Positions 1 through 26,873 are shown, counted from the stretch's first letter. The stretch is 64,000 nucleotides of DNA from Halothiobacillaceae bacterium (GCA_049974825.1 JBNGDJ010000001.1:30993-94992), one strand, 5' to 3'. The notes: generated from the sequence alone by a model not told the origin. Numbers and translations: made by a program.

Positions 1-1307
1 CGGGTCTCGGAAACGTAGCGGTTGGTCTGCCCTACGCTGAGGATGGCCGGCGTGTGGTTTCGCACCCGCACACTGGGGTTCGAAAGGATCTGCACGCTGC
101 CGAAGGCCTCAAGCGCATCCACCGTCACCGAGATCGCCGGAGACGAGAAACCAATACCGAACGACGAGGTGTCCGCGCCGGCAATCCCCACATCCTGTCC
201 GCCAAAGGTGATGTCGCGCGCGGGCAACCACATACCCTTATCGCCGGTATAGCCGGTTGAGCCGCCGCTGATGGTGGCCGGCGCCGTGCCCAAGGTGCTG
301 GCTACCCGGTCACGCAGGAGGTTCCAGTCCAGCCCCCAGCGGAAATCGTCGTTGAGGCTCACATCCAGCAGCTGCGCTTCGATCAGCACCTGCCGCCCCA
401 TGACTTCCTTGAGGTTGCCCACCAGGTTGGCGACCCGCTTGACTTGAGAGGGTCGCGCACGGATCTCGAGCGTCCCGGAAGCACGGTTGATCGAGTAACC
501 GGCGCTGCCCGGGCGGATTGTCAACGTGTCCTCTTCTTCGTCTTCTTCCTTTGACTGTCCCAGGATACGCTGCAGTGCCAGGTCGAGCTGCTCGTAGGGG
601 TCCGCCGATCCCGCGGTACCTCCACGAAGCGAAAAATCGCCCTGGATCAGGTTGTCCGCACCACCCCCGTCGCCGCTGCTGCCGCCACCGAAGACATTGC
701 CCCCGGCCGCAAGATTCAGATCCATGACGGTATTCAGGAAGTCGACGTTGAACAGGCGATCCTCATAGACGCCGATGCGAATGACGTTGCCGCGCCGTTC
801 AACCGCCAGGTCGAAGGCGTCGGCCACGTGGTCCAGCAGTTCCCGCGCGGTGACATCCGGCAGGAACAGCGACGCCCGCTTGTCGATATCCAGAACCTCG
901 GGCTCCACAATAAGGCTGGTGTCGGTTTCCTCCGCAAGTACCCGGAGCACCGCGGTCAGGGGCGCATCGTGCAGCCGCACGGTAACCACCATGTCCTCAA
1001 GCGGGTCGTACTCCGGCTCTACCGCCTCTTCCAGTGGCTCAGGTCCCTTTTCCTCGACGCTGGCACGAATCTCGTCGTTCACGCTCCGAAACTTGGCTGA
1101 CTCTTCGGCAATGCGATCGGTCATCCGCTTGTACGCCTCGCGTTCCACCTCGCCCATGGTGGTCACGCTGCGCGGGGGATTCTGCGCACAACCGGCCAGC
1201 CCCATGGCCACGGCCAGAAGCGCGATCGACACCCTGCGCCCCCCCTTGCGAGAACCCCGGAGCGGATTGAGGCTGTGCTTGTTGAGCAAACGTGCTTGGC
1301 TCGTCAT
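1..1307 (-). CDS. Secretin (GspD/PilQ superfamily, MshL/type IVb-like lipoprotein secretin); C-terminal part lies outside the window
   Basis: Own minus-strand translation from ATG 1307-1305: MTSQARLLNKHSLNPLRGSRKGGRRVSIALLAVAMGLAGCAQNPP (lipobox LAGC). An N0-like segment follows (VTVRLHDAPLTAVLRVLAEETDTSLIVEPEV, RLFNVDFLNT), then a Gly-rich linker and secretin-core strings (QVLIEAQLLDVSLNDDFRWGLDWN, SVQILSNPSVRVRNHTPAILSVGQTNRYVSET). The frame stays open to nt 1. It is absent from the ORF track because there is no in-window stop. Confidence 0.8.
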   Translation of the reverse strand, partial: MTSQARLLNKHSLNPLRGSRKGGRRVSIALLAVAMGLAGCAQNPPRSVTTMGEVEREAYKRMTDRIAEESAKFRSVNDEIRASVEEKGPEPLEEAVEPEYDPLEDMVVTVRLHDAPLTAVLRVLAEETDTSLIVEPEVLDIDKRASLFLPDVTARELLDHVADAFDLAVERRGNVIRIGVYEDRLFNVDFLNTVMDLNLAAGGNVFGGGSSGDGGGADNLIQGDFSLRGGTAGSADPYEQLDLALQRILGQSKEEDEEEDTLTIRPGSAGYSINRASGTLEIRARPSQVKRVANLVGNLKEVMGRQVLIEAQLLDVSLNDDFRWGLDWNLLRDRVASTLGTAPATISGGSTGYTGDKGMWLPARDITFGGQDVGIAGADTSSFGIGFSSPAISVTVDALEAFGSVQILSNPSVRVRNHTPAILSVGQTNRYVSET

Positions 1308-1368
1308 CCTGAACAACTATCCCGTCGTTAACGTTTGTGAGTCGTTTCGGCCCCGGTCATGGACCCGG

Positions 1369-2160
1369 TTATCGGTATTTCAGCCGCGCAGCCAGTTGGT
1401 CTGCCGACAACATCCCGGACACCCCGTCGTACTGCGCCGAAAGCGGAGTGTTCGGCGGCGGCAGGCACACAGCGGCCGTCCGTGGTGGCGGAGAAAGATC
1501 TACGCCGCCCCCCGGTTCCATGCGCCCCTGCGGCCCGGGCAGAACCAGGGCCACTGCCGGGTAGCCGAGAATGTCCGTGCAATCCGGCGTATCACCCGCA
1601 AGCGCGGCCATGTGCGTCTGTGCCGGATCAAGCGACACTTCGCTGCCATCCGGTGCCTCAATCGGCGGTTCCTGATCTTCGGTTCCGGCGTCTTCGTCCG
1701 ACTCAGGCTGGGGCTGTACGATCGACAGCCAGCGCAGCCCCTCCAGAAGATGATCGACACCCTGCTCCGCCATACCCTGTGGCAGGCGTTGCGTCTGCCG
1801 AGTCAGATCAATCGGTTCTCCCCGGTACACGCTGAAAAACCCCCGCTTGACGGTTGCCGGACTGGACAACCCAAGCGTCTGGTACGGAATCCAGCCGAAC
1901 CCGGCATCGCTGGTGCAGCTGCCGGAGGGCGCGCGGCTCTCGTGCCCGTCGCCCTCCAGGTCCGGGCAAGGCAGCCGATGCTGCAACGCCGCGTACTCGA
2001 CCACGCGGGCAAGAATCCGGTCGACCTCGCTCTGCGCCTGGTCCCGGCCCTTGCCTTCAACGACCAGATTGGCTGCGAGGATGGCCGCCCCACCGACCAA
2101 CGCCGTGACCACCAGGGCCACGGCCACCTCGACGAGCGAAAATCCACAGTTCCGGTTCAT
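1369..2160 (-). CDS. Prepilin-type minor pilin / pseudopilin (263 aa)
   Basis: N-terminus MNRNCG|FSLVEVAVALVVTALVGG has the prepilin cleavage/methylation motif (G-1, F+1, E+5) followed by a hydrophobic helix. ATG 2160-2158 overlaps the upstream stop (ATGA). No other domain recognised. Confidence 0.7.
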   Translation of the reverse strand: MNRNCGFSLVEVAVALVVTALVGGAAILAANLVVEGKGRDQAQSEVDRILARVVEYAALQHRLPCPDLEGDGHESRAPSGSCTSDAGFGWIPYQTLGLSSPATVKRGFFSVYRGEPIDLTRQTQRLPQGMAEQGVDHLLEGLRWLSIVQPQPESDEDAGTEDQEPPIEAPDGSEVSLDPAQTHMAALAGDTPDCTDILGYPAVALVLPGPQGRMEPGGGVDLSPPPRTAAVCLPPPNTPLSAQYDGVSGMLSADQLAARLKYR

Positions 2161-2816
2161 GGCGCCGGCAACTCCATGGCGAAATCGTGGTCCAGCTGGC
2201 CCTGCAGGGTTTCCATTTGCTTGAGCAAATCCTGCAGCTTGTCGATGTCGACCTCCTCGCCGCGCTCCGCTTCCCGTTCGATCTCTTCGGCCAACGCCTG
2301 CAGATCCCGAGCGATCGCAACATTGTTGCGGAGCTGGCCAAGATCAATGCCACCGATCGCTTCGTTGCCCGTGATCTCGGCCATGCGCACAAGTGCCGAA
2401 TCCAGACGGTCCAGGTCCGGTTTGGGCTCGGCTGCAATAGCGGTCATTTCCCGCTGGATGGCGTTGAGTTCAGCCAGTTCCTCGTCGCTGAGCTGCGGCC
2501 CGACCGGCTCGGGCAGCTCAGGTACCGGTGCCCGGGGCGTTTGCTCTTCCGCCGGCTCATCGGGCGCTTGCTCCCAGGGACGCGGGGCCTCGTCAACCGA
2601 CGACAGATCCGCAGGCTGGTCTCCCGCATCGGGTCGAGGCGACGGTTCAGGCATCTTCGCCGGCTCGTCTGCGCTTTCGTTGACGGCCGGTGCCTGCCCG
2701 GTGCCCGGGGACGACGCCACGGGTTCTTCGCGCCCGTGATAGACAATCTCCATGACAAGCAGGGCGCCCAACATCAGGGCAATCAGAACCGTCAGAACCT
2801 TGCTGGTCGTGCTCAT
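2157..2816 (-). CDS. Hypothetical bitopic membrane protein of the filament operon (219 aa)
   Basis: N-terminal TM anchor (VLTVLIALMLGALLVMEIV), Pro/Glu-rich linker, and a C-terminal helical/coiled-coil-like acidic region. ATG 2816 is preceded by GGGGTGAG. No family recognised. Confidence 0.5.
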   Translation of the reverse strand: MSTTSKVLTVLIALMLGALLVMEIVYHGREEPVASSPGTGQAPAVNESADEPAKMPEPSPRPDAGDQPADLSSVDEAPRPWEQAPDEPAEEQTPRAPVPELPEPVGPQLSDEELAELNAIQREMTAIAAEPKPDLDRLDSALVRMAEITGNEAIGGIDLGQLRNNVAIARDLQALAEEIEREAERGEEVDIDKLQDLLKQMETLQGQLDHDFAMELPAP

Positions 2817-2880: not shown

Positions 2881-2886
2881 CCCTGG

Positions 2887-3462
2887 TCAGGGGTGCACGC
2901 GCCCGATCTTCGAATCGCCATCCATTCGAAGCACCAGTCTTTCCGAGCCGCGCTCGACGGTCACCTCGTCTGGCTCAATGCTGGCCACGACCCCGCCGGC
3001 ATCCAGTTCATCGCCCTGACGGTAGAACCGGCCGTCAATCAGAGCCCGTGCCCGCTGTTCCGCCACGAAAATCATCTGAAGCACCGGGTCCGGCAGCGGT
3101 GGCGGCGCGGCTTCGGCAGCCGCCTGTGCCGCCGCCTCAGCCTGAGCTCTTGCCTCGGCTTCCTCGGCCAGCAGGACCTCCTCTTCCTGCTCAGGCTCAG
3201 GCGGCACCTGGGCCAGAAAGGTCCGCTCACCAAGACGGCGAGCGAGGCGCGCCTCCCGCGCAGCTTCATCAAGTAGATCAACCCGCGCCGAAGCAGTCAC
3301 GAGATCCTCCTCAAGACGAAGCAGGGCCGGATTGGCGGCCGGGCGCTCCACGGGCATGGCTGCCAGCCCCTTGGCACTGCCCCGGACATACTCGTAATAC
3401 AGGGCGCCCGCCACCACCAGGGAAAGCGCCAGAACCAGGCCGATCAGGCGAGCGGGATTCAC
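2887..3462 (-). CDS. PilP/MshK-like pilus assembly protein (191 aa)
   Basis: N-terminal TM (LIGLVLALSLVVAGALYY) and an Ala/Glu-rich coiled coil. The C-terminal segment ALIDGRFYRQGDELDAGGVVASIEPDEVTVERGSERLVLRM resembles the PilP/MshK/GspC-HR beta domain. The GTG start overlaps the upstream stop (GTGA). Confidence 0.5.
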   Translation of the reverse strand: MNPARLIGLVLALSLVVAGALYYEYVRGSAKGLAAMPVERPAANPALLRLEEDLVTASARVDLLDEAAREARLARRLGERTFLAQVPPEPEQEEEVLLAEEAEARAQAEAAAQAAAEAAPPPLPDPVLQMIFVAEQRARALIDGRFYRQGDELDAGGVVASIEPDEVTVERGSERLVLRMDGDSKIGRVHP

Positions 3463-4922
3463 GAGACACCCTCCTTGCGCAGCAGATAGGAGAAGAAACC
3501 GGTACCGCGACTGCGACTGCCGGGATCCAGGGCTTCCGTGTCATAACCGGCGGCAGCCAGCCGTGAGACAAAGCGTGTCAGGTCGGCATCCGCCCCGGCA
3601 TCAAACATGCCTTCGATCCGATAGGCCGAACCCCCGTCCGCCGCCGCAATCCGCATAATGCGAATCCGGGCGTCACCCAGCGCATCCTGCAGATCCAGAA
3701 GGACAGTACCGAGAGAAGGCCCCTGCCGGGCCGCCGCCAGGTCAGCCACCAATGTCAGGTCTTCCTCAATACCCTCGAGAAGGGCCGTTGGCGGGGGCAG
3801 GGCCGGCATGTCAGCGGCAATGCGGTCGGCCTCGGCCTGCAGCAAAGCGGCGCGCGCCTGAAGGCTGTCGGCCTTCTCAAGGTTCTGGAAGGTCAGCAGG
3901 CCGAGACCGCAACTGGCCACGATGGCCGCCGCCGCCAGCGGTGTTCGAAACCGGTCCGCCAGATTCACGGCCCGCACCCAGGGCTCCTCAAGCACCGGGG
4001 TGCGAGAGACCATGGACGCCAGCGATGGGTCATAACGCAGGAAGCGCGAAAAACGCAGGGGGGCAAGCGGCTCTTCAAGCATTTCGAGCTCGGGGCCGGC
4101 ACCCAGGTCGCCTCCGGATTCCGGTACCGTAGAACCGCCCGCATCAGACGCCCGTTCGTCCACGGAGTCGTCCAGCTCAGGCTCTTCACCCGGCATGGGA
4201 ATGGTTCGAACCTTGCCCTGGGCCGTAACCTCCTTGCCCAGACGGCCAGCCATTCGCCGCCGCAGGGCTTCTGCATGCGCCTCGGCATCCTCCGGGTCGG
4301 CGGCCAGGGTGGTGGCGAAGAGGTCAAACCAGTGAATGCGCTCGGCCTCGGCGATTGCGCGCCCAACCTGATCCCGTTCAACCCGCGAGAGCAGGGAGTC
4401 CAGGGCCGAATTGATGACTTCCGGCTCTTCCTGGTAGGCCACGACCGATTCATGCGCCATTTCGCCGCGATGCCAGGCCGCAAAATGCAACTGCCGTCCC
4501 CACCGGACCGTCACGCAGCCATGTCGGCGCGTCAGAGCAACCAGCAACTGGCCCAGGGCGTGGCTGTCCACCGGGTAGGGCTGGCGATGAGCCCAGTCGC
4601 CATAGGCCTGCCAGTCCCGAAGGCGCACGGCGGTAAGAAAGCAGGAAGTAGTGCCGGACACCGAGTGGGTCCAGTGCGGCAGCAGGCGGGATTCGCCCTC
4701 AATCAGGCCTTCATTGCGCAGGCGCTTTTCGATGGTCGGCAGGGCGAAGCGCTTTTCGACCTCCGCCCGGTATAGACCAATGGTGGCCTCGGGAAAGTCC
4801 ACCAGCACCTGGGCCGGTCGGGACAAGCCGCTGCGCTCGGGGATGGCCTGCACGCCGCGCTTGCCGTCGACGGCATACCAGAGATCATCAACAATGCAGA
4901 TCAGGGCGTCCTTCATGGCCAC
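3459..4922 (-). CDS. PilM-PilN fusion / GspL / MshI-like assembly protein (487 aa)
   Basis: Topology only: about 300-aa cytoplasmic N-domain, acidic linker, single TM (AAAAIVASCGLGLLTF) and about 130-aa C-domain. No nucleotide-binding motif recognised. Start is GTG 4922 or ATG 4916. It lies between PilO-like and PilP-like genes. Confidence 0.45.
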   Translation of the reverse strand: MAMKDALICIVDDLWYAVDGKRGVQAIPERSGLSRPAQVLVDFPEATIGLYRAEVEKRFALPTIEKRLRNEGLIEGESRLLPHWTHSVSGTTSCFLTAVRLRDWQAYGDWAHRQPYPVDSHALGQLLVALTRRHGCVTVRWGRQLHFAAWHRGEMAHESVVAYQEEPEVINSALDSLLSRVERDQVGRAIAEAERIHWFDLFATTLAADPEDAEAHAEALRRRMAGRLGKEVTAQGKVRTIPMPGEEPELDDSVDERASDAGGSTVPESGGDLGAGPELEMLEEPLAPLRFSRFLRYDPSLASMVSRTPVLEEPWVRAVNLADRFRTPLAAAAIVASCGLGLLTFQNLEKADSLQARAALLQAEADRIAADMPALPPPTALLEGIEEDLTLVADLAAARQGPSLGTVLLDLQDALGDARIRIMRIAAADGGSAYRIEGMFDAGADADLTRFVSRLAAAGYDTEALDPGSRSRGTGFFSYLLRKEGVS

Positions 4923-4923: not shown

Positions 4924-5418
4924 TCACTCCATCAGGCGGAAATAGGCGGTGCCACGCAGGGTCAGCCGAAGCGGCTGATCCACGACCTCGTTGACATCAA
5001 ACAGCCCCGCGTCGACATGCGTGACCGCCAAGTCCAGCGACTCCACAGCAAAGTGCCGTGACTCGCCGAGCAGAACATCATTCAGTACCCGCTCCAGTTC
5101 GTCTCGATCAAGCTGGACCTGGCGCAAAGACACCTGCCGCGCCCCCCACTGAGAGTCACGGTAATTGGTCCACTCCAGACGCTCATCAAGATCCTGGGCG
5201 AGCACGGCCAGTTGCGCCTGCCGTTCCGCGTCGGCTACCCGCTGCTCGGCCATGGCCCGGGCCTGTTCGGCGCCGCGCAGGGCTTCAGCGGCACGTTTTT
5301 GCTGCTGGCCGCTCCAGTACGCCGCCGCCAGCATGCCCATCATCAGAGCAACAAGCAGCCCGGTGAAGACCATGCCGGCATGCCGACGTGTTGCGACATG
5401 ATGGTTCTTCCAACCCAC
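4924..5418 (-). CDS. PilO/GspM-like bitopic assembly protein (164 aa)
   Basis: Basic N-terminus, TM (MVFTGLLVALMMGMLAAAYW), coiled coil (AEALRGAEQARAMAEQRVADAERQAQL) and a small C-domain. GTG 5418 has GGAGCAG 7 nt upstream. Confidence 0.4.
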   Translation of the reverse strand: MGWKNHHVATRRHAGMVFTGLLVALMMGMLAAAYWSGQQQKRAAEALRGAEQARAMAEQRVADAERQAQLAVLAQDLDERLEWTNYRDSQWGARQVSLRQVQLDRDELERVLNDVLLGESRHFAVESLDLAVTHVDAGLFDVNEVVDQPLRLTLRGTAYFRLME

Positions 5419-5422: not shown

Positions 5423-6289
5423 TCACTGCTCCATGATCCAGTGTGCGGTCAGCAGGACGACCCGGTCCTCATCGAAGGTCCGGCCTTCCTGAGTTCCGTC
5501 TTCGGCCACGGTACCAATGCCTTCCTGCTGCGCGACAGTGTTGTTCGCCAACCACTGGTGGCCAGGTCGGTTGGCCGTTTCCGAATCCTCGTTGGTGTTC
5601 GCGGTCTGGATGCGGAAGCGCCCTTCCAGTGCATCCGGCTTGCCGTCAATCACCTGGTCCAGATACCGGGCCAGGTCCGGTGTCAGGCCACGAAGCACCA
5701 TGACATTGCCCGCACCACTTTCAGTGCCGGCCGGGTTCCACTGAAAGCAGACCTGCAATTCAACCGCATTGCCATTGGTATCCTGATAGACGTAGCGATC
5801 CTCGCGGCCTTCACCGCGCCCCGGCGGCATCCGGATGCCGATACGCTGCATCAGCGCGCGGAGGTTCTGATCGGCCAGCTCGCGGTCGCCCTCACCGACC
5901 TCGCCCTCGTTGTAGCCCTGGCCATTGCAGATCTTCAGACCGGTATTGGCGAAGTTTTCGGGAATGCCGGCCAGCGCGCCGTCCAGATTGCCCCCCTCAC
6001 CGGTGCTTGATCCGCCAATGGTCGCCTCCTCGCCATTGACCATGTAGGTTGGCGAGGTCTGCACATCACCGAGAACAACACCGGTGCGGTTGTAGTACTC
6101 GTCGTAGGCCTTTTTCCAGCCGCTGACGAACTTGTTGGAGATCTTCGCGTACTCGGCGTTTCGCTGAACATCCTTTCCGATCATGACCGCACCGACGATC
6201 AGGCCGATGATCACCAGCACGATCGCCATTTCGATCAGGGTGAAGCCGCCGACCCGTCGGCGCATCCCGACTTGCTCGATCACTCGCAT
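5423..6289 (-). CDS. Large type IV pilin-like protein, paralog B (288-aa precursor)
   Basis: MRVIEQVGMRRRVGG|FTLIEMAIVLVIIGLIVGAV is a prepilin motif. ATG 6289 was chosen because AGGAG lies 7 nt upstream. The ORF track begins at TTG 6295, and an alternative ATG is at 6265. The mature part is about 270 aa with 2 Cys. Confidence 0.8.
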   Translation of the reverse strand: MRVIEQVGMRRRVGGFTLIEMAIVLVIIGLIVGAVMIGKDVQRNAEYAKISNKFVSGWKKAYDEYYNRTGVVLGDVQTSPTYMVNGEEATIGGSSTGEGGNLDGALAGIPENFANTGLKICNGQGYNEGEVGEGDRELADQNLRALMQRIGIRMPPGRGEGREDRYVYQDTNGNAVELQVCFQWNPAGTESGAGNVMVLRGLTPDLARYLDQVIDGKPDALEGRFRIQTANTNEDSETANRPGHQWLANNTVAQQEGIGTVAEDGTQEGRTFDEDRVVLLTAHWIMEQ

Positions 6290-6304
6290 GCCCAAACTCC
6301 TGCC

Positions 6305-7099
6305 TTACTGGTTCATCTTGTAGTGCGCTACGACAACTTGGACCTGATTCTCGTCCAGCCCGGCGTCTTCCCCGATACCTTCTTGACCGTAGGCCTGAGT
6401 GTTGCTGGCCTGCCACTGCTGCCCGGGTTGATTCGCGGTCTCGCACGTCGCACCTTCGCGACGGAACATGCCCTCGCACTCATCCGGCTTGCCGTCGATC
6501 ATCTGATCCAGGGCGCGGGCCAAGTCGGGCGTCAGCCCAGTGAGCACCATGACATTGCCCGCGCCAGAAGCGGTGTCCGGCTCATTCCACTGGAAGCAGA
6601 CCTGAACCTCCTGCGGGTTGCCATTGCTGTCCAGGTACACATAGCGGTCCTCGGAACCCTCGGCGCGGCCCGGCGGCATGCGCACACCCGCCCGCAGCAT
6701 CAGCTGACGCAGGGCAAAATCGCCGTTCACCGTCGTATCCTCCGCGCCACGATCCATGTCCTGCCCTTGAGCCCCCTGGCAGATCGCGGAGGGCTCGTCG
6801 ACACCCGACATATCACGGCCGGAGAGGCTGTCGCCGTTGCCATCGAAATTGGCCCCGTTGACCATCAAGCGCGGCGCGGTCTGATCGTCGCCGAGCGGGA
6901 CGCCGGTTCGCTGGTAGTAGGTGTTGTAGGCCACCACCCACTGATCCACGAACTTCTGCTTGATTTTCGAATATTCCGCGTTGCGCTGGACATCCTTGCC
7001 GATCATTACGGCACCCAGGATCAACCCGATGATCACCAGCACCACGGCCATTTCCACCAGCGTGAAACCGCCGGCACCCCGAATGCGTCTTTGCATCAT
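6305..7099 (-). CDS. Large type IV pilin-like protein, paralog A (264-aa precursor)
   Basis: MMQRRIRGAGG|FTLVEMAVVLVIIGLILGAV is a prepilin motif. ATG 7099 was chosen because GAGGGAGGCAAGAGA lies upstream. The ORF-track ATG 7138 has no RBS. It shares long blocks with paralog B (GKDVQRNAEY, RMPPGR.EG.EDRYVY, QVCFQWN, SGAGNVMVL.GLTPDLAR, IDGKPD). Confidence 0.8.
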   Translation of the reverse strand: MMQRRIRGAGGFTLVEMAVVLVIIGLILGAVMIGKDVQRNAEYSKIKQKFVDQWVVAYNTYYQRTGVPLGDDQTAPRLMVNGANFDGNGDSLSGRDMSGVDEPSAICQGAQGQDMDRGAEDTTVNGDFALRQLMLRAGVRMPPGRAEGSEDRYVYLDSNGNPQEVQVCFQWNEPDTASGAGNVMVLTGLTPDLARALDQMIDGKPDECEGMFRREGATCETANQPGQQWQASNTQAYGQEGIGEDAGLDENQVQVVVAHYKMNQ

Positions 7100-7329
7100 G
7101 TCAGTCTCTTGCCTCCCTCGCAGGGCTGGATTTCGCATTAAACGAACCGAAGTTCATGGACCGGGGACTTGAACGCGCATCCTGCGCGATACTTGTGTTG
7201 CACACCCCTTGAAAAACGCCGCACAAAGCCACAGTTGGCGCTGCTCGGCCACCAAACCCAGTGGTTTGGGCCACGGTACGCCGGGGCATCCATCCCCAAC
7301 CGGGAACCTGAAAAATTCCAAAAGAGATT

Positions 7330-7369
7330 CCCTTGCGAAGGGTTCCTTCCCTGGAACCCTTCGCAAGGG
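7330..7369. repeat. Perfect 17-bp-stem hairpin (CCCTTGCGAAGGGTTCC / GGAACCCTTCGCAAGGG)
   Basis: Read directly: stem 7330-7346, loop TTCCCT, stem 7353-7369. It is preceded by AGAGATTCCC (7323-7332), the terminal motif of the mosaic repeat family. Confidence 0.85.
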
Positions 7370-7427
7370 GTACTCACGACACTCACGAAAGCGATCGCTG
7401 CGTTTTGGCAGATAGTCCATGACTCAA

Positions 7428-7483: not shown

Positions 7484-7529
7484 CAGCCTTGCCGAAGAAC
7501 TCCTTCCCTGAAATTCTTCGGCAAGGCTG
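7484..7529. repeat. 16-bp-stem hairpin related to 7330-7369
   Basis: CAGCCTTGCCGAAGAA ... TTCTTCGGCAAGGCTG with a loop containing TCCTTCCCTG, the same loop core as the 7330 hairpin. Confidence 0.85.
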
Positions 7530-11574: not shown

Positions 11575-12993
<1,419 letters not shown>

Positions 12994-20200: not shown

Positions 20201-23039
20201 CATGATTGATGCGCTCGCGCAGTGCCTGGATGTACCCGCCGATTTCCTTGTCGAAAATCTCGCGCAGCACGGGGTCTGCAATCACGGGGGGCGCCGCCTC
20301 GGCAGTTTCCTCGGCTTCGGGCAACACGTCAGCCGCCCCCTCGGCAGGCTCGGCCGTCTCGGTCTCTTCCGGCAGCTCCAGCCGCGGGATAACCAGTGCC
20401 TCGACCTGCGCGGCCGGATCCGGCGCGGGCTTGTCGTCGGGCAGTACCTCTTCGCCGCCTGCCAGACGGTCGGCCCGGTGCCGACTGCTGCGCCAGTAGC
20501 CGGGACCCGGCTCGAAGCCCTGCTCAAGCACCCGGAGTGCCCGTCGCAGGCGGTCAACGGCATCGACGACATGCTCGCGCAGGGTGACGCAGGGCTCCAC
20601 CACGCCGTCGAGCACCCCGTTGAGCAGGTTTTCCTGCGCCCAGGCCCAGGCCCCGATCGCTTCGAGTCCGACAATCCGGCCACTGCCCTTGACCGTATGA
20701 AATCCGCGCCGCAGCTCCGAGAGCTTGTGCCGGTCAGTGCGATCGGCATGCCAGCCGCGGGCATTGGACTCCAGTGCGTCGATGAGCTCGCCAATCTCTT
20801 CGGCAAAGACCAGGCGCATCTCGCGCTCGGACTCATCCGGCGGGTGATGGGTATCGACATCGAATTCCGTCTCGAAACCCATGAAGTCGGTCAGCGGCCG
20901 GTCGGGCTCGGCCAGGGCCGGCGCGCTCAAAAGCGGGGGCAGTTCCACACGTCCGGCACCGGTGGCCACCGGCGCGAAGGTCGGGGGCGGCTCCTCCGGC
21001 TCGGCTTGCACATTCGGTTCCCGTGACGGCTGCGGTGCGGGCTCGGGTGCTTCAATGGCCAGATCCGAGAGATCGGGCATCTCCGGGGCCGGGATTGACT
21101 CGACTGACTCGCCCCCTGGTTCGGGTTCCTGTTCGGGTTCGGGCGCAGGTTCGGGCTCGGCTGCTCGCGGGGGCTCCGACGCGGCGGCAGGCGCCTCATC
21201 CATCGGCACAGTGACAGGCGACGGCGGTTCGACAGGCCGCTCGGAAGGCGCAACCGCTGTCTGCGCCTCTTCAGGCTCGGCGGACTCTGGGGCTTCCTCC
21301 TGCGGGCCTGGCTCGACGCTGGCTGCCGGCAATGCAGCCGAGGGCTCAATTGCTTGTTCCGCAGGTTCTGCGACGGATTTGCGTTCTGCCGGCTGCGCTT
21401 CACCGAGCGCGGCATCCAGGGCCTGCTGGGCATCAAGACCTACCTGCAAAAAGCGCGTCAACTCGCGGCGGTAGGTGCGCAGGTTGCGAAAATAGTATTC
21501 GACGGCTGCAAAAAGCGTGGCCAGCGCCGTCAGCGTTTCGGGGTCCCGGCTTTCAGGCCGCTCGGCCAGTTCGGCCTGAATCCAGCGACGCAGACCGGCG
21601 AGCAGGGGTTGAACCGCGTTCATGCCCGAGACAGACAGTGCCCCCTCCACGGATTCCAGAGCCGCCTCCGCCTTGTCCAGCGCAGCGCGGCTGCCCACCA
21701 GCAGGTTGTCGACCTCGGACTTGGCCGAAAGAAAGGCATCGGTGGCCGCTTCCATCAACGCCTCGATGGCGCCGAACAGTGCCAGATCGACCATCAGCGG
21801 TGCCGAGCGGGTGCCATGCAGTGCGCTGGCTGTCAGACGGTTCAAGGCAACCTGCCCCTGCATGACGGCGCCGGCCAGCTGCATCAGGTAGGCATCGTCC
21901 AGAGTCGCTTCGCCGGCGATGGCCGACTCCAGGCGGCTGGCCAGGGCGGGCAAGTCGTCCGACTGTTCACCGGCGCCGAGAAAGTTCAGCGTGCGATGGG
22001 CTACAAGCAGCCGCGGCATCAGGGTGGTCAGCGGGTCCAGGTCGGAACGGTTGCCCCGCACAAACATGTCCAGCGCATCCTCGATGGCGGCATATTCGGA
22101 CTCAAGCTCGCTTGCCGCCTGCTCCACCGCGGCGCGCTCAAGCCCGACAAACTGTGCCTGGTCGCGGCCGCCAGCCTGGGCAGCGCGCAACTCGGCGACC
22201 GGCAACCCGAACAAATGCTCTGATTCGGGCAGTTGTTCGACCAGGTGAAAGAGCACCCCGCGGGCCAGGGCATCAAGCTGGTCAACATAACCCGCGCCTC
22301 GCCCCTGATCAACGGCAGCGCGCAGTACCCGGTTGACTCGTCCGAGCAGCATCTTTTCCCGGGCAGTCGGCTCGGGAAAGGCCCGGATCAGCTCAAAAAG
22401 CAGCCGCCAGCTCAGGGATTCCATCCGCGTCTGCGCGCTGCCGACCAGTTCGGAGAAGATCCCGGCCAACACCTCGGTGCCGTCCGGCTGGCCGCGCAGC
22501 AGGCCAAGCAGGGCCTGCTCGTAGCGACCGCGCAGTGCCGACAGGTCGGGCTGCTGATCGCCCCGGGGCGAAGCAAGCGGCACCATGCCGGCCAGACGCA
22601 GCAGGGCATGCTGCGCCCGAAGTGCCTCCGCGTCCATGGCCTCAACGCCACGAGCCGCGCGAATGGCATTGACCACGGAGGCCAGATCGATCGCCTGCAC
22701 CGCGTCACCGGCCTGAAGATGATCCATCAGCGGGCCGAGTTGCCAGGCACCGCGAACCAGGGCCGAGACGACCTCGGCCGAGAAAACGTCCCGGTCGACC
22801 ATGTGCTGGCAACCGAGCATCATCTCCCGGGTCAATACGCGGGCGACGTGCAGGTCGGTCATGGCAAACACGCCGCCAAGCTGCTCGAGGACGCGGGCCG
22901 CGTCCTCGGCATGCTCCGGCGCCGCCGACTCGCCGGTCAACGGCTCGAGCGCCAGCCGGAGCCGTTCGATCTGCTCGTCCACGCCCTCGCGAATCCAGTC
23001 GAGTGCGATGGCATCCATGAGCTCTTCACGCGGCGTCAT
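17253..23039 (-). CDS. chpA: ChpA/PilL-type hybrid CheA histidine kinase with multiple Hpt domains and a C-terminal receiver
   Basis: Hpt motifs FHTVKGSGRIVGL, LTHTLLGSARTAG and LHTLKGGARMAGL, plus degenerate N-terminal copies. The kinase core reads HMIRNAIAHGIE, DDGRGLD, GRGVGMDVV. A CheW-like domain and a receiver (LVVDDSVTIRKV ... LSDIEMPRMDG) follow. The ORF track starts at GTG 23108. ATG 23039 (MTPREELMDAIALDW) has GGGGGAAG upstream. Confidence 0.85.
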   Translation of the reverse strand: MTPREELMDAIALDWIREGVDEQIERLRLALEPLTGESAAPEHAEDAARVLEQLGGVFAMTDLHVARVLTREMMLGCQHMVDRDVFSAEVVSALVRGAWQLGPLMDHLQAGDAVQAIDLASVVNAIRAARGVEAMDAEALRAQHALLRLAGMVPLASPRGDQQPDLSALRGRYEQALLGLLRGQPDGTEVLAGIFSELVGSAQTRMESLSWRLLFELIRAFPEPTAREKMLLGRVNRVLRAAVDQGRGAGYVDQLDALARGVLFHLVEQLPESEHLFGLPVAELRAAQAGGRDQAQFVGLERAAVEQAASELESEYAAIEDALDMFVRGNRSDLDPLTTLMPRLLVAHRTLNFLGAGEQSDDLPALASRLESAIAGEATLDDAYLMQLAGAVMQGQVALNRLTASALHGTRSAPLMVDLALFGAIEALMEAATDAFLSAKSEVDNLLVGSRAALDKAEAALESVEGALSVSGMNAVQPLLAGLRRWIQAELAERPESRDPETLTALATLFAAVEYYFRNLRTYRRELTRFLQVGLDAQQALDAALGEAQPAERKSVAEPAEQAIEPSAALPAASVEPGPQEEAPESAEPEEAQTAVAPSERPVEPPSPVTVPMDEAPAAASEPPRAAEPEPAPEPEQEPEPGGESVESIPAPEMPDLSDLAIEAPEPAPQPSREPNVQAEPEEPPPTFAPVATGAGRVELPPLLSAPALAEPDRPLTDFMGFETEFDVDTHHPPDESEREMRLVFAEEIGELIDALESNARGWHADRTDRHKLSELRRGFHTVKGSGRIVGLEAIGAWAWAQENLLNGVLDGVVEPCVTLREHVVDAVDRLRRALRVLEQGFEPGPGYWRSSRHRADRLAGGEEVLPDDKPAPDPAAQVEALVIPRLELPEETETAEPAEGAADVLPEAEETAEAAPPVIADPVLREIFDKEIGGYIQALRERINHARSVGVSLVPDEALARLTHTLLGSARTAGVSEISQLARAVEDVMLACREAGSRLHQEPLTVFSEAVDRIEQLRRWAIGELPEPVPTHDLIERLLALRASFAGAGVPGMQAPKAAQTEAPGVEPLKVEPAEPAVVPSASSETVKPELSPGAQPAAEPADESERPDDLPAEQDPEILEIFLEEADELVEAADEQLQAWHAQPDAADPIRLLHRNLHTLKGGARMAGLMNIAEITHLLEDRLDRARDRGVDNPRALVALVQRTYDTLGTLIDRVRNMQPVPAQHELLALLSRDELPDSEALTGAAATPEVTDAAPAAAPTPQETAQPAGLEGAAPAETAPEEAMSFGTAETDEKAAEPAPAQLVDQPEATPAVERAAPREQLRVPSERIDELVAEAGESLLLQARIDRQMHGFERQLGELNQTVSRLRGQLRRLEIETESSMRHQLHREGVEAGAHFDPLEFDRFTRVQELSRSLMEALGDIDEIEDVLREQADQARTLLVQQGRLGRTQQDQLIALRLVRFGDLAGRLQRLVRQVAAELGRRAMLSVEGGDVRLDRVTLMALQAPLEHMIRNAIAHGIEPPAARQQAGKPAEGQLRIHLESQGGNILMTVSDDGRGLDLEAIRRKARARGLIEGDREISDEEARTLIFDPGFSTAETVSQVAGRGVGMDVVATAVRQLGGYIEVDSSPGAGTRIEVTLPLTQALTRGVLLGVGEQRYAIPDKGILSVVRVSGRALADAYASEQPALSQDGQSYPLYYLGDLLWGDGPPRALGVDMRPVLLMRLGERRLAVQVDRQYGVIQLFVKALGPRLDQVPGLMGATIDEDGEVTPVLDLVGLYRHRRAGGQAEAGPRGREDRPLVLVVDDSVTIRKVTARILERRNIETAVARDGVEALGMLRARRPDLVLSDIEMPRMDGFELLGAIRNDAQIRDLPVIFITSRTAAKHRERAESLGVSGYLGKPYTETELLAAMAQWLPGLCAEDESP

Positions 23040-23126
23040 TGACGCTTCCCCCTTGCAGTCGTTCTGGCAGGGTGTCGCCCCGTGACCTCTCGCCACCGGT
23101 CGACTCACCCCGGCTTGGCGTGACGA

Positions 23127-25203: not shown

Positions 25204-25740
25204 TCAGGCGCCGCGCGCGGCCACCACGGCATTGAAGGCCGGGCTGTCCACGAGGGCGGTCAGGGAAATCACCTGCACCGGCTCGGCCTCGAAGGTAACG
25301 GCATGATCGACGTGCGGCAGGTCCGCCGGCGACTGCGCACGGTCATCCGCCGGGAAGCGGCGGATGCCGATCGAGCGGTCGACCAGCAGGGCGGCGGCAT
25401 CCTCGGCCCGCCGAACGACCAGCATGACACTGCGCCGATCCACGGACGTCGGCCGACCGAACAACACAAGCCCCAGGTCATGCACCCCGACAAGCTCGCC
25501 ACGCAGATTGCACAGTCCAAGCAGAGAGGGAACGACCCCGGGCAGCGGGACGATCCGGGGTACCGGCACGATGGCGGAAACCTCGTCCAGCGGGGAGACC
25601 AGCAACTGCTCTCCCACCCGGTACACGACCCCTTGCCAAGTTTCCACCACCCCCTGCTCGCGCGGCAGGCCGGCCGAGGAGGCGACGGCGCGCCCGGCCA
25701 GGCTGCGCAGGCAATCGAAGGCGGTCGCTGCCTCAGCCAC
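25204..25740 (-). CDS. pilI: PilI-type CheW-like protein (178 aa)
   Basis: CheW-like sequence (VPRIVPLPGVVPSLLGLCNLRGELVGVHDL). The GTG start overlaps the pilH stop by 8 nt. Gene order matches pilG-H-I-J. Confidence 0.7.
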   Translation of the reverse strand: MAEAATAFDCLRSLAGRAVASSAGLPREQGVVETWQGVVYRVGEQLLVSPLDEVSAIVPVPRIVPLPGVVPSLLGLCNLRGELVGVHDLGLVLFGRPTSVDRRSVMLVVRRAEDAAALLVDRSIGIRRFPADDRAQSPADLPHVDHAVTFEAEPVQVISLTALVDSPAFNAVVAARGA

Positions 25741-26098
25741 CGAGCACCTGCCTGAGCGCGGCCATCAGCTCTGCTTCCTCGACCGGCTTGGTCAGGTAGG
25801 CCTTGGCTCCCTGACGCATTCCCCAGATCCGGTCTGTTTCCTGGTCCTTGGTGGTCACCATGATGACGGGAATCTTCGCGGTTTCCGGGTCCCGGCTCAG
25901 CTGGCGCGTGGCCTGGAAACCGTTCATGCCCGGCATGACCACGTCCATCAACACCAGATCAGGCTTGCCGGACCTGATCAGGGCCAGCCCCTCCTCCGCG
26001 CTGGAGGCGGACTCGACCTGGAACCCCTTCCCCGTGAGCATCTTCTGCAGCACGTAGATCTCGGTGGGCGAATCGTCGACGATCACCACTTTCGCCAT
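25733..26098 (-). CDS. pilH: PilH-type single-domain response regulator (121 aa)
   Basis: MAKVVIVDDSPTEIYVLQKML ... DLVLMDVVMPGMNGFQATRQL ... YLTKPV is a CheY-like receiver. GGGAGCAAGGC lies upstream of the ATG. Confidence 0.85.
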   Translation of the reverse strand: MAKVVIVDDSPTEIYVLQKMLTGKGFQVESASSAEEGLALIRSGKPDLVLMDVVMPGMNGFQATRQLSRDPETAKIPVIMVTTKDQETDRIWGMRQGAKAYLTKPVEEAELMAALRQVLGG

Positions 26099-26148
26099 GC
26101 CTTGCTCCCTTGAAGTCTCGAAGAAGTCTCGAAATGGTTGCGCGGCGG

Positions 26149-26583
26149 TCAGGCCAGTTGCGCCTCGGCCACAGGCCGACCCTCGGGGAAGATTCGGCCA
26201 AGCGCCCCGAGCAGCTCGTCACTGGTAAACGGCTTGGTCAGGTAGTACTCCGAACCCACGATCCGGCCGCGCGCCTTGTCAAAGATGCTGTCCTTGCTGG
26301 AGAGCAACACCACCGGCACATCGGCGAACCGGGGGTTGTGCTTGATCAGCGCCGTGGTCTGGTAGCCGTCGAGGCGGGGCATGAGGATGTCGATGATCAC
26401 CACATCCGGCTGGAATTCGTCGATGCGGTGCAGGGAATCGAAACCGTCCACCGCGGTACGCACCTCGCAGCCGGCCCGACCCAGGAGGCTTTCGGCCGTC
26501 CGGCGGATGGTCTTGCTGTCATCGACCACCATGACCTTGAGGCCCTCGAGTCCTTTTGCGTCGCTGCTGCCCTGTTCTGCCAT
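26149..26583 (-). CDS. pilG: PilG-type single-domain response regulator
   Basis: From ATG 26583: MAEQGSSDAKGLEGLKVMVVDDSKTIRRTAESLL ... DILMPRLDGYQT ... SSKDSIFDKARGRIVGSEYYLTKPF. This matches my recollection of P. aeruginosa PilG closely. An alternative ATG is at 26649. The ORF-track start at 26790 looks like non-coding read-through. Confidence 0.85.
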   Translation of the reverse strand: MAEQGSSDAKGLEGLKVMVVDDSKTIRRTAESLLGRAGCEVRTAVDGFDSLHRIDEFQPDVVIIDILMPRLDGYQTTALIKHNPRFADVPVVLLSSKDSIFDKARGRIVGSEYYLTKPFTSDELLGALGRIFPEGRPVAEAQLA

Positions 26584-26873
26584 GTCGTCACCCTGATCCT
26601 GGGCGGTCGGAACGAATCGTCCGCCGGATTGCCCATTGCGATTGCTCATTGCCTTTGCGCCGGACGCGCATCCTGCTGCAATACTCGGACAGATGGCGCT
26701 CCCGCGCAAGTTGCGCACCCTTGCGACAGCAGTGATCACAGCCTGAGCGCACAGGCTGCTAGAATGAAGCCCCTGCCAATGATGGCCCAAGGTTCAACCG
26801 GGGGCGTCGCCGGCAGCGGCCGGGCGACGGGCCCGAGCACCACTTGCCCATTACACACAATTCGAGTAAGCGA

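What the first reader, a model, noticed from the sequence alone, without database searches (positions are those of the whole stretch)
1..26649. One-strand supercluster linking a Pil-Chp-like chemosensory operon, two diguanylate cyclases, a STAND-type regulator and an atypical type IV filament locus
Seen: all 19 CDS from pilG (26.6 kb) down to the secretin (nt 1) are on the minus strand. Many junctions overlap by 1-8 nt, including chpA/chpC (ATGA, 17253-17256), chpC/cyclase (TTGA, 16744-16747), pilH/pilI and several junctions inside the filament block. Only three gaps exceed 80 bp. Established: in Pseudomonas aeruginosa, Pil-Chp (PilG/H/I/J/K, ChpA/B/C) controls twitching and cAMP, while Wsp is the chemosensory pathway with a diguanylate cyclase output. 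Inference: this locus looks like a Chp-type pathway joined to c-di-GMP synthesis (one Cache/PAS enzyme, one O2/NO-type globin enzyme). It also joins a large NTPase regulator sitting immediately upstream of non-canonical pilin genes. I do not recognise this combination as a described system, but I cannot verify that without searches.
Basis: partly seen in the sequence, partly recalled or inferred. Interest (0 to 1): 0.72.

Follow-up and report, generated by a model that had tools for sequence, protein, structure and literature searches.

The report
Chemosensory–cyclase–regulator–pilus gene block
In an uncultured sulfur bacterium, a twitching-type chemosensory operon, two c-di-GMP synthases and a Streptomyces-style activator sit directly upstream of an MSH-type pilus operon; the layout suggests c-di-GMP and the activator jointly switch the pilus on, but it is seen in only two related species.

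Summary
The block is real. I support 17 minus-strand CDS from pilG (26582) to a truncated secretin (nt 3), not 19. The cited overlaps are correct. It is not one unit.

Proposed transcription units:
- pilG-H-I-J-chpA-chpC, with no pilK or chpB, fused by a 4-nt overlap to a dCache-PAS-GGDEF cyclase.
- A globin-coupled cyclase plus a SARP / degenerate-cyclase / AAA_16 / TPR regulator, behind a conserved extended -10-like motif.
It holds two tandem GTTAACG heptamer boxes at 11-bp spacing, the classical SARP site form. It also holds three 17-18-bp hairpins with ANGGA hexaloops, the CsrA/RsmA site form.
- A divergent MSH-type type IV filament operon.

In orthologous loci the filament ATPase carries the MshE-type c-di-GMP-binding motif.

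The full linkage recurs in the only sampled relative, with 42-93% protein identity. It is absent from 53 more distant chpA loci and from distant filament loci. Neither cyclase has a receiver domain, so a Wsp-like Chp-to-cyclase output is not supported.

Best reading: a lineage-specific new variant of c-di-GMP-controlled MSH pilus regulation. No step has been tested experimentally.

The parts
26149..26582 (-). pilG, a CheY-like single-domain response regulator. An alternative in-frame ATG lies at 26649.
   Evidence: Response_reg 85.5 bits. The start MAEQGSSDAKGLEGLKVMVVDDS was read.
25733..26098 (-). pilH, a CheY-like response regulator
   Evidence: Response_reg 104 bits. It overlaps pilI by 8 nt.
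25204..25740 (-). pilI, a CheW-like adaptor
   Evidence: CheW 76.6 bits
23127..25124 (-). pilJ, an MCP with the PilJ-type N-terminal domain
   Evidence: MCPsignal 131 bits; PilJ 27.8 bits against a cut-off of 26.6
17253..23108 (-). chpA, a 1951-aa hybrid CheA with multiple Hpt domains, HATPase, CheW and REC
   Evidence: The orthologue in L011 also shows weak FimL-like domain hits.
16744..17256 (-). chpC, a CheW-like protein with 4-nt overlaps on both sides
   Evidence: CheW 32.6 bits. The same overlaps occur in L011.
13178..16747 (-). Cyclase 1: periplasmic dCache_3, multiple PAS domains and GGDEF, with a GGEEF active site and an RxxD I-site
   Evidence: 78% identical orthologue in L011.
13123..13138 (-). 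Conserved extended -10-like motif (TGnTATGAT) in the 184-bp gap between the cyclases; a candidate promoter for cyclase 2 plus the regulator
   Evidence: An island conserved between the window and L014; unique in the window. Promoter function is inferred.
11575..12993 (-). Cyclase 2: a globin-coupled sensor diguanylate cyclase of DosC architecture, with GGEEF and RxxD
   Evidence: Protoglobin 36.3, DosC_2nd 74.8 and GGDEF 161.8 bits; motifs
7887..11525 (-). Large SARP-type regulator: wHTH (weak), BTAD, degenerate cyclase-homology region (residues ~272-395), AAA_16 NTPase and TPR
   Evidence: Orthologues at 74% and 43% identity only.
7692..7709 (-). SARP-type box 1: GTTAACG-N4-GTTAACG (11-bp period), followed 8-9 nt later by a -10-like CAGAAT
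   Evidence: One of only two such sites in 64 kb, against 0.03 expected. The ~30-nt block is almost invariant in L011 and L014.
7553..7594 (-). Hairpin 1, with hexaloop AGGGAC closed by C-G (CAGGGACG)
7486..7527 (-). Hairpin 2: 18 perfect pairs, hexaloop AGGGAA
7428..7445 (-). SARP-type box 2: TTTAACG-N4-GTTAACG
   Evidence: Counterparts are TTTAACGCTCAGTTCACG in L014 and TTGAACGCACGGTTCACG in L011.
7329..7370 (-). Hairpin 3: 17 pairs, hexaloop AGGGAA. It is followed by a T-run in the window only.
6305..7099 (-). Large pilin A, with prepilin leader MMQRRIRGAGG|FTLVEM. An AGGGAGG Shine-Dalgarno lies just upstream.
   Evidence: N_methyl; sequence. 88% identical in L014 and 52-70% in distant loci.
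5423..6265 (-). Large pilin B, a paralogue of pilin A
   Evidence: N_methyl. 93% identical in L014; aligned.
4924..5418 (-). 164-aa bitopic protein of the assembly platform. A GspM/PilO-like role is inferred from position only.
   Evidence: No family hit. Its position is conserved in all related loci.
3459..4922 (-). GspL/MshI-like platform protein: a PilM/GspL-type cytoplasmic domain, a transmembrane helix and a GspL-type periplasmic domain
   Evidence: AF2 pLDDT 87.5. Foldseek matches to PilM 5eou, GspL 4pht/1yf5 and PulL/EpsL/XcpY C-domains. 118 remote representative clusters with no Pfam match.
2887..3462 (-). 191-aa bitopic protein with a GspC/GspB-like C-terminus
   Evidence: Weak T2SSC, T2SSB and SctD hits. 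T2SSB (weak) in the L097 and L106 orthologues.
2157..2816 (-). 219-aa bitopic protein of unknown role. A terminator-like hairpin at 2880-2862 lies just upstream.
   Evidence: syntenic
1369..2160 (-). 263-aa pilin-like protein next to the secretin
   Evidence: N_methyl 27.6 bits
3..1307 (-). N-terminal 435 residues of an MshL-type secretin, cut by the window edge
   Evidence: TIGR02519 129.8 bits on the fragment. The full orthologues score 258 and 289 bits against a cut-off of 250.

Best explanation
The block is a lineage-specific assembly of four probable transcription units that converge on one filament.

- Unit 1 is a Pil-Chp-type chemosensory operon (pilG-H-I-J-chpA-chpC) with no methyltransferase or methylesterase gene. 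It has captured a dCache-PAS-GGDEF cyclase by translational coupling to chpC.
- Unit 2 encodes a globin-coupled cyclase and a large SARP-type regulator (wHTH-BTAD, degenerate cyclase-homology region, AAA_16 NTPase, TPR).
- Unit 3 is a 787-bp control region with two SARP-style boxes and three ANGGA hairpins.
- Unit 4 is a divergent MSH-type type IV filament operon. It runs: two large pilins, GspL/MshI-like and GspC/B-like platform proteins, a third pilin, and the MshL secretin. Beyond the window edge, by synteny, follow a TPR protein, an ExeA/MshM-like ATPase, an MshE-type ATPase and a GspF-type platform protein.

Proposed mechanism:
- The SARP regulator binds the two 11-bp-spaced GTTAACG heptamer pairs and activates transcription toward the pilins (inferred).
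- c-di-GMP from the two sensor cyclases binds the MshE-type N-terminal motif of the filament ATPase and licenses polymerisation. The motif is shown in orthologues; binding is inferred. Cyclase inputs would be a periplasmic ligand plus PAS signals for one, and O2 or NO at the haem for the other.
- The ANGGA hexaloop hairpins and the AGGGAGG Shine-Dalgarno of the first pilin add CsrA/RsmA-type translational control or titration (speculative).
- The Chp system is linked to cyclase 1 by co-expression, not by phosphotransfer.
For: - Gene map and domains.
- Synteny from chpA to the regulator in L011, and from cyclase 1 through the whole filament operon in L014, L015 and L016, at 42-93% protein identity.
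- Boxes: 2 sites in 64 kb against 0.03 expected, both in the regulator-pilin gap. They are conserved in L011 and L014 within otherwise ~72%-identical DNA. The form matches the classical 11-bp SARP heptamer repeats and resembles the AfsR site CGTT(T/C)ATCGNN (PMC10972967).
- Filament class: MshL equivalog passed (258 and 289 bits against 250). The MshE-related c-di-GMP motif NF053729 passed (55.5 and 39 bits against 38). ExeA-like AAA plus PG_binding and a GspF-like platform are present. The 487-aa protein has a GspL/PilM fold.
- Both cyclases keep GGEEF and RxxD.
- Hairpins: folding z-score -9.0. 97% of cells are paired and 16 of 18 pairs change on both sides. The loops are conserved while the stems differ between species. 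A covariance model finds only these nine copies in 1.42 Mb. The loops fit the CANGGAYG/ANGGA hexaloop consensus of RsmA/N (bioRxiv 10.1101/2020.08.24.265819).
- MshEN is described as a high-affinity c-di-GMP receptor (PMC5013675).
Against: - Only two species carry the arrangement. At this divergence, synteny alone is weak evidence of functional coupling.
- The MshE-type ATPase lies outside the window and is inferred by synteny.
- The wHTH of the regulator scores below the Pfam cut-off (19.6 against 26.2 bits).
- GTTAAC is palindromic, so the boxes could serve a different dimeric factor.
- The -10-like hexamers are weak, and their spacing after box 2 differs between loci (my reading).
- No csrA gene is in the window, and no Rfam family matches.
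- Perfect 17-18-bp stems are much longer than in known Rsm/Csr RNAs.
- The genome is rich in c-di-GMP genes: a third GGDEF-EAL protein lies at 36.4-40.3 kb. This lowers the weight of cyclase proximity.
- Distant filament loci have no SARP regulator next to them.
Confidence: 0.55

Rival explanations
1. Neutral juxtaposition. The Chp operon (serving a type IVa pilus encoded elsewhere), the two cyclases, the regulator and the filament operon are functionally independent neighbours. They are kept together in two close species only by shared ancestry.
For: - Of 53 chpA-relative loci with at least 4.5 kb downstream, none has a GGDEF domain within 4.5 kb, a STAND regulator or any filament gene.
- The closest chpA relative, L017 at 58%, has other genes after chpC.
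- Distant filament loci lack Chp and the regulator.
- Neither cyclase has a REC domain.
Against: - The 4-nt chpC/cyclase overlap is conserved across species.
- SARP-type boxes occur only between the SARP gene and the pilins.
- A c-di-GMP receptor motif sits in the adjacent machine's ATPase.
- A distant filament locus, L102, also has two GGDEF genes within 7 kb.
Confidence: 0.25
2. This is one co-transcribed supercluster in which the Chp pathway has a diguanylate cyclase output, Wsp-like, that drives the filament.
For: - The run sits on one strand with many overlaps.
- No terminator-like site lies in the 184-bp or 49-bp gaps.
Against: - The cyclases have no receiver domain.
- The 787-bp gap has terminator-like hairpins at 7841-7822 and 7369-7330 and its own promoter-type boxes.
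- A conserved extended -10-like motif lies in the 184-bp gap.
Confidence: 0.08
3. The filament machine is a type II secretion-like endopilus, or another non-adhesive device, rather than a surface MSH pilus. This rival concerns the nature of the machine only, not the regulatory model.
For: - GspL-fold, GspC/GspB-like and ExeA-like (AAA plus PG-binding) parts are present.
- The two large pilins are the most conserved components. They are 52-70% identical where the GspL-like protein is 25-28% identical. This is atypical for exposed pilins.
Against: - The secretin passes the MshL equivalog and not the GspD model (106-131 bits against a 351 cut-off).
- The ATPase carries the MshE-type motif.
- No GspH/I/J/K-type minor pseudopilin set is recognisable.
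Confidence: 0.25
4. The three hairpins are insulators or terminators, or protein-independent stability elements. They are not CsrA/RsmA sites, and their GGA loops are incidental or bind another factor.
For: - The perfect 17-18-bp stems are far longer than those of Rsm/Csr RNAs.
- Hairpin 3 has a T-run in the window.
- No Rfam match and no csrA in the window.
Against: - The loop sequence is conserved while stems diverge in all nine copies.
- The T-run after hairpin 3 is not conserved in L011 or L014.
- The same AGGGAGG motif forms the pilin Shine-Dalgarno.
Confidence: 0.4

Closest known systems
Pseudomonas aeruginosa Pil-Chp system (pilG-H-I-J-K, chpA-B-C-D-E)
   Same: Gene order pilG-pilH-pilI-pilJ-chpA-chpC. 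PilJ has its N-terminal domain. ChpA is a multi-Hpt CheA with a C-terminal receiver. Adaptors are CheW-like.
   Different: No pilK (CheR) or chpB (CheB) lies in the cluster. chpC is translationally coupled to a sensor diguanylate cyclase, where P. aeruginosa has chpD/chpE (from my own knowledge). The known P. aeruginosa output is cAMP through CyaB (also from my own knowledge).
Vibrio cholerae MSHA pilus locus, with MshE as c-di-GMP receptor
   Same: A single locus with an MshL-type secretin, an MshE-type ATPase bearing the c-di-GMP motif, an MshM-like AAA ATPase, an MshN-like TPR protein and a GspF/MshG platform protein. No prepilin peptidase is seen in the stretches recovered (MSH definition from PMC6668835). 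As I recall, the Vibrio locus also starts with a GGDEF-EAL gene, mshH.
   Different: The platform proteins are unrecognisable by Pfam or NCBIfam. The pilins are a conserved pair of 260-290 aa with no MshA similarity beyond the N-terminal helix. The MshM-like protein carries a peptidoglycan-binding domain, as ExeA does. The regulator is of SARP type.
Wsp chemosensory system (WspR response-regulator cyclase)
   Same: A chemosensory gene cluster with a diguanylate cyclase gene at its 3' end.
   Different: The cyclases here have no receiver domain, so the defining phosphotransfer to the cyclase cannot occur. The core is Chp-type, not Wsp-type.
Large SARP regulators of Streptomyces (AfsR; SARP-LAL PimR)
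   Same: The architecture is wHTH-BTAD, cyclase-homology region, AAA_16-type NTPase and TPR. The candidate targets are heptamer direct repeats in 11-bp units next to a weak -10, like the classical SARP sites. They also resemble the AfsR repeat CGTT(T/C)ATCGNN (PMC10972967).
   Different: The host is a gammaproteobacterium and the target is a pilus operon, not an antibiotic gene cluster. Identity to any other protein outside the clade is at most about 30%. No solved structure matches by sequence.
Csr/Rsm sponge RNAs and CsrA-bound 5' leaders (RsmY/Z, CsrB)
   Same: Several stem-loops present ANGGA in a hexaloop closed by C-G, matching the SELEX consensus CANGGAYG. The downstream Shine-Dalgarno carries the same motif.
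   Different: The stems have 17-18 perfect pairs. No Rfam Rsm or Csr model matches. The upstream element is a SARP-type box, not a GacA box. The presence of csrA in the genome is unverified.
Globin-coupled sensor cyclases (E. coli DosC type)
   Same: Protoglobin, DosC middle domain and GGDEF, with GGEEF and an I-site.
   Different: No partner phosphodiesterase gene (DosP-like) is adjacent. Here the gene is paired with a SARP regulator.

Membership tests
Pil-Chp chemosensory system | PilG and PilH single-domain CheY-like regulators, and a PilI CheW | tested here: met
   Response_reg 85.5 and 104 bits; CheW 76.6 bits
Pil-Chp chemosensory system | PilJ MCP with the PilJ N-terminal domain | tested here: met
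   PF13675 27.8 bits against a cut-off of 26.6; MCPsignal 131 bits
Pil-Chp chemosensory system | ChpA: a multi-Hpt CheA with a C-terminal receiver | tested here: met
   3 Hpt stretches, HATPase_c, CheW and Response_reg in 1951 aa
Pil-Chp chemosensory system | Adaptation enzymes PilK (CheR) and ChpB (CheB) in the cluster | tested here: not met
   Only 18 bp separate pilJ and chpA, and chpA/chpC overlap by 4 nt. Many chpA relatives have a ~1.1-kb gene before chpC. These genes could lie elsewhere in the genome.
Wsp-like chemosensory pathway with cyclase output | A receiver domain on the diguanylate cyclase that accepts phosphate from the CheA | tested here: not met
   No Response_reg hit on either cyclase
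MSH-type type IV filament (Denise et al. 2019: mshA, E, G, L and M mandatory; single locus; no peptidase) | MshL secretin | tested here: met
   The window fragment scores 129.8 bits and is truncated. The orthologues score 258.2 and 288.6 bits against a cut-off of 250.2.
MSH-type type IV filament | MshE ATPase with the c-di-GMP-binding N-terminal domain | tested here: met
   Seen in orthologous loci only. L014: MshEN 46.1 bits and NF053729 55.5 bits against 38. L102: 39 bits against 38. The gene lies beyond nt 1 of the window.
MSH-type type IV filament | MshG platform protein and MshM ATPase | tested here: met
   T2SSF/GspF-like 418 aa. AAA_22/AAA_16 565 aa with an additional PG_binding_1 domain. 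These are in the orthologous locus.
MSH-type type IV filament | MshA-type major pilin | tested here: inconclusive
   Three prepilin-type proteins are present. Only the N-terminal helix resembles MshA or other pilins. Which of them is the major subunit is unknown.
SARP family, large AfsR/PimR-like subclass | OmpR-type wHTH plus BTAD at the N-terminus | tested here: met
   BTAD 32.3 bits against 22.1. Trans_reg_C is only 19.6 bits against 26.2, so it is weak. The same pattern holds in P0002 and P0003.
SARP family, large AfsR/PimR-like subclass | Central NTPase and C-terminal TPR | tested here: met
   AAA_16 72.4 bits against 32.6; the TPR hits are sub-threshold.
SARP family, large AfsR/PimR-like subclass | Target sites of heptamer direct repeats in 11-bp units near the -35 position | tested here: met
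   Two such sites in the adjacent intergenic region, against 0.03 expected. They are conserved. Binding itself cannot be tested with these tools.
Csr/Rsm-type RNA or CsrA-bound leader | Multiple GGA motifs in stem-loop apices | tested here: met
   Three hexaloops of form A(G/A)GGA(N) per locus in three loci
Csr/Rsm-type RNA or CsrA-bound leader | Match to a curated Rsm or Csr RNA family | tested here: not met
   No Rfam hit at gathering threshold. Only chance microRNA-type hits appear at E up to 1.
Csr/Rsm-type RNA or CsrA-bound leader | A CsrA/RsmA protein encoded in the genome | not testable with these tools
   None in the 64-kb window or in the fetched loci.
Globin-coupled sensor diguanylate cyclase | Sensor globin, middle domain and an active GGDEF | tested here: met
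   Protoglobin 36.3, DosC_2nd 74.8 and GGDEF 161.8 bits. GGEEF is intact. Haem ligation was not tested.

The most novel reading that the evidence does not exclude
The SARP-type regulator may use its degenerate cyclase-homology domain and NTPase to read a nucleotide signal. That signal could be c-di-GMP from the neighbouring cyclases or cAMP from the Chp pathway. From two heptamer boxes it would then drive a Csr/Rsm-like decoy RNA (hairpins 1-2) and the pilin operon (hairpin 3 plus the AGGGAGG Shine-Dalgarno). This would give a three-layer switch (transcription, translation, assembly) for a previously undescribed branch of MSH-like filaments. That branch is defined by an unusually conserved pair of large pilins.
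Probability: 0.12. Interest if true: 0.8.

Novelty: new variant of a known kind. Interest (0 to 1): 0.5.

Why it matters
If correct, three points follow.

- A Streptomyces-type SARP activator with classical heptamer boxes would control a cell-surface machine in a gammaproteobacterium. SARP biology has so far centred on antibiotic gene clusters.
- The locus offers a compact, testable case of c-di-GMP acting on an MSH-type ATPase with two dedicated sensor cyclases beside it.
- It flags a wider filament family. The family has at least 118 representative clusters at 50% identity and includes a Noviherbaspirillum genome. Its core platform protein has no Pfam model, and its two large pilins are far more conserved than the rest of the machine.

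The three ANGGA hairpins are a clean candidate for a new CsrA-type target or sponge.

Tried and rejected
- Source genome: the genome-contig scan with the regulator returned only matches at 25-32% identity in unrelated phyla. Exact look-ups of the window's regulator and of P0001 found nothing on record. The DNA beyond nt 1 could therefore not be read directly.
- More distant regulator homologues: L012 (43%) ends in an opposite-strand gene that I judged IS-like by eye, untested. It has only a loose TTAAC...TTAAA pair at 10-bp spacing. L013 (28%) sits in an unrelated context.
- Riboswitch or known sRNA in the 787-bp gap: rejected.
- Sigma-54 promoter upstream of the pilins: checked by eye. No GG-N10-GC at correct spacing.
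- Hairpins as a genome-wide REP element: rejected. The covariance model found no further copy in 1.42 Mb. The window's real REP-like family has a different sequence.
- Small ORFs in the gap: rejected on codon-position GC content.
- Wsp-like model: rejected because the cyclases lack a receiver domain.
The two-sequence run gave pLDDT 40.9 and was discarded.
- PDB sequence searches gave nothing for the regulator. For the pilins they matched only the N-terminal helix.
- The direct Pfam scan of regulator residues 255-435 found no cyclase domain. The assignment rests on alignment to homologue P0004, whose equivalent region passes Guanylate_cyc.
- Upstream context of distant filament loci: most contigs break at the pilin pair. 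Only L102-L104 were informative.

Full report
**Observation.** The window is ~65% GC, and real genes show third-position GC of 0.70-0.87. From nt 3 to 26582, every ORF with this signature lies on the minus strand. The next gene is a divergent gshA at 26844-28175, so pilG heads the run.

I support 17 CDS. They are pilG, pilH, pilI, pilJ, chpA, chpC, two cyclases, the regulator, seven filament genes and the secretin fragment. The two small ORFs in the 7.1-7.4 kb stretch have third-position GC of 0.56-0.61 and lie over hairpins, so they are not counted.

Further 4-nt overlaps occur at 3459-3462 and 2157-2160. Two gaps exceed 80 bp: 184 bp between the cyclases and 787 bp between the regulator and the first pilin.

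**Chemosensory module and cyclases.** Pfam confirms the following:
- PilG and PilH (receiver domains) and PilI (CheW).
- PilJ (PilJ N-domain at 27.8 bits against a 26.6 cut-off, plus MCPsignal).
- A 1951-aa ChpA with Hpt domains, HATPase, CheW and a receiver.
- ChpC (CheW).

There is no room for pilK or chpB. pilJ and chpA are 18 bp apart, and chpA overlaps chpC.

Cyclase 1 is dCache_3 plus several PAS domains plus GGDEF. Cyclase 2 is Protoglobin plus the DosC middle domain plus GGDEF. Both keep GGEEF and an RxxD I-site five residues upstream. Neither has a receiver domain, so a WspR-like output is excluded.

**The regulator.** The 1212-aa protein has a weak OmpR-type wHTH, a BTAD domain, AAA_16 and sub-threshold TPR hits. 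Residues ~272-395 align with the stretch of homologue P0004 that passes Pfam Guanylate_cyc. By eye, canonical cyclase sequence signatures look altered, so I read this stretch as a degenerate cyclase-homology region. That gives the architecture described for PimR-type SARP-LAL regulators (abstract of PMC3367932, listed; review PMC10972967).

Close orthologues are very few: 100% (the source, a Halothiobacillaceae MAG with a 98.6-kb contig), 74% and 43%. All other hits are at or below about 30%.

**The 787-bp control region.**

- *Heptamer boxes.* GTTAACG-N4-GTTAACG lies at 7709-7692, and TTTAACG-N4-GTTAACG at 7445-7428. These are the only such sites in 64 kb, against 0.03 expected.
- *Conservation of the boxes.* Box 1 sits in a ~30-nt block that is almost invariant between the window, L011 and L014, although the region overall is ~72% identical. 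Box 2 is kept as TTTAACGCTCAGTTCACG in L014 and TTGAACGCACGGTTCACG in L011.
- *Promoter context.* A -10-like hexamer (CAGAAT or GAAAAT) follows box 1 by 8-9 nt. This is the classical SARP site form of heptamer direct repeats in 11-bp units. The unit also resembles the AfsR repeat CGTT(T/C)ATCGNN.
- *Hairpins.* The three longest inverted repeats of the whole window lie here, and the region folds with a z-score of -9.0. Each is a 17-18-bp stem capped by a hexaloop A(G/A)GGA(N) closed by C-G.
- *Covariation.* L011 and L014 have the same three hairpins with the same loops but different stem sequences. On the eight distinct copies, 97% of cells pair and 16 of 18 pairs change on both sides. No shuffle or slid register approaches these values. 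The copies were chosen because they fold, so this count is partly circular. The orthologous comparisons are the independent part.
- *Uniqueness.* A covariance model finds only these nine copies in 1.42 Mb, so they are not a REP family.
- *Candidate ligand.* The loops fit the CANGGAYG/ANGGA hexaloop consensus of RsmA/N. The Shine-Dalgarno of the first pilin is AGGGAGG in both species.
- *Limits.* No Rfam family matches and no csrA is in the window.

**The filament operon.** In the window it encodes, in order:
- two paralogous large pilins;
- a 164-aa bitopic protein;
- a 487-aa protein;
- a 191-aa protein with weak GspC/GspB-like hits;
- a 219-aa bitopic protein;
- a third pilin-like protein;
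- the first 435 residues of an MshL-like secretin.

The 487-aa protein has only one close homologue cluster. A profile search finds 118 remote representatives of about 430 aa, none with a Pfam domain. Its AlphaFold model (pLDDT 87.5) matches PilM and the GspL cytoplasmic domain at the N-terminus. It matches the PulL, EpsL and XcpY periplasmic domains at the C-terminus. It is therefore a GspL/MshI-type platform protein.

The orthologous locus L014 shows what lies beyond nt 1:
- the rest of the secretin, which passes the MshL equivalog at 258 bits against 250;
- a TPR protein;
- an AAA protein with a peptidoglycan-binding domain, like ExeA or MshM;
- an ATPase with Pfam MshEN and the NCBIfam MshE-related c-di-GMP motif (55.5 bits against 38);
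- a GspF-type platform protein;
- a 684-aa protein.

This satisfies the MSH definition of Denise et al., which requires mshE, G, L and M in a single locus with no peptidase. The exception is an MshA-like pilin.

**Distribution.**
- Close relatives: L011 keeps chpA, chpC, cyclase 1, cyclase 2 and the regulator with the same overlaps. L014 keeps cyclase 1 through the whole filament operon. Protein identities range from 42% to 93%.
- Distant chpA loci: 80 metagenomic loci with ChpA relatives at 40-58% identity were fetched. Of the 53 with at least 4.5 kb downstream, 18 have a recognisable chpC. None has a GGDEF domain within 4.5 kb, a STAND regulator or any filament gene. The GGDEF genes 5-7 kb away in six loci look like separate units. 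This was checked in L033, where an opposite-strand gene intervenes.
- Distant filament loci: L097, L098, L101, L102-104, L105 and L106 (the last from Noviherbaspirillum) keep the same gene order. Where upstream DNA is visible, there is no regulator or Chp operon.
- One exception of interest: L102 has two GGDEF genes 3-7 kb upstream on the other strand, behind four unrelated genes. Its ATPase also passes the c-di-GMP motif.

The complete linkage is therefore specific to one small Halothiobacillaceae clade.

**Interpretation.** The most economical reading is four transcription units converging on one filament. What is shown:
- the gene content;
- the conserved overlaps;
- the box and hairpin architecture and its conservation;
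- the c-di-GMP motif in the orthologous ATPase.

What is inferred:
- the regulator binds the boxes;
- the cyclases feed the ATPase;
- CsrA reads the hairpins;
- the 184-bp gap holds a promoter. This rests on the conserved TGnTATGAT at 13138-13123.

The Chp link is best described as co-expression of cyclase 1 with the chemosensory proteins.

The main rival is neutral juxtaposition preserved by recent common ancestry. It cannot be excluded with two species, and I give it 0.25.

**Verdict.** Every module is of a known kind, but the wiring is new. It combines a SARP-type regulator with classical boxes in front of an MSH-type operon, ANGGA hairpins between them, and a cyclase fused to chpC. The evidence base is narrow. 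I rate it a new variant of a known kind, with interest 0.5.

Noticed in passing
window 5423-7099; L014 7817-9490; L097, L098, L101, L102, L105: The two large paralogous pilins (260-290 aa) are the most conserved parts of this filament family. They are 52-70% identical in loci where the GspL-like protein is only 25-28% identical. Invariant blocks include RMPPGR.EG.EDRY, QVCFQWN and GLTPDLAR, plus a conserved Cys pair. There is no Pfam or PDB match beyond the N-terminal helix.
   Followed up: partly
window 29127-60511 (for example 35220-35255, 40828-40843, 60297-60332): There is a REP/MITE-like intergenic repeat family with core GGAATCTCTGCACGAA. It often occurs as an inverted pair with a 4-nt spacer and an adjacent CCATCCATGG module. 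It gives 17 core matches against 0.5 expected, all between 29 and 60.5 kb and none inside the 1-26.6 kb block.
   Followed up: partly
window 35433-40305: A FIST-domain protein is followed by a 1284-aa PAS-GGDEF-EAL protein. This is a third c-di-GMP gene in the window, and it lowers the statistical weight of cyclase proximity to the filament.
   Followed up: no
window 51386-54943: A dCache/HAMP histidine kinase is followed by an NtrC-type sigma-54 activator. Any relation to pilus regulation, for example a PilS/PilR-like role, was not examined.
   Followed up: no
L014 6960-7400, compared with L011 and the window: L014 carries about 400 extra bases between hairpin 2 and box 2, relative to L011 of the same regulator cluster. 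The two box-hairpin modules therefore behave as separable units.
   Followed up: no
L102 820-4676: In a distant filament locus, two GGDEF genes of about 595 aa lie 3-7 kb upstream of the pilins. They are on the opposite strand, behind four unrelated genes. This may hint at a recurrent cyclase-filament association, but it rests on two informative loci only.
   Followed up: partly
window 2862-2880: A GC-rich 7-bp stem with a T-run, terminator-like, lies in the 70-bp gap inside the filament operon between the 191-aa and 219-aa genes. It could set different expression levels for the two halves of the operon.
   Followed up: no
window 1326-1333: A single palindromic CGTTAACG lies just upstream of the secretin start, and it matches the core of the heptamer boxes. 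Its significance is unknown.
   Followed up: no
window 26844-28175: gshA (glutamate-cysteine ligase) is the divergent neighbour of pilG. From my own recollection, gshB lies next to pilG in P. aeruginosa.
   Followed up: no
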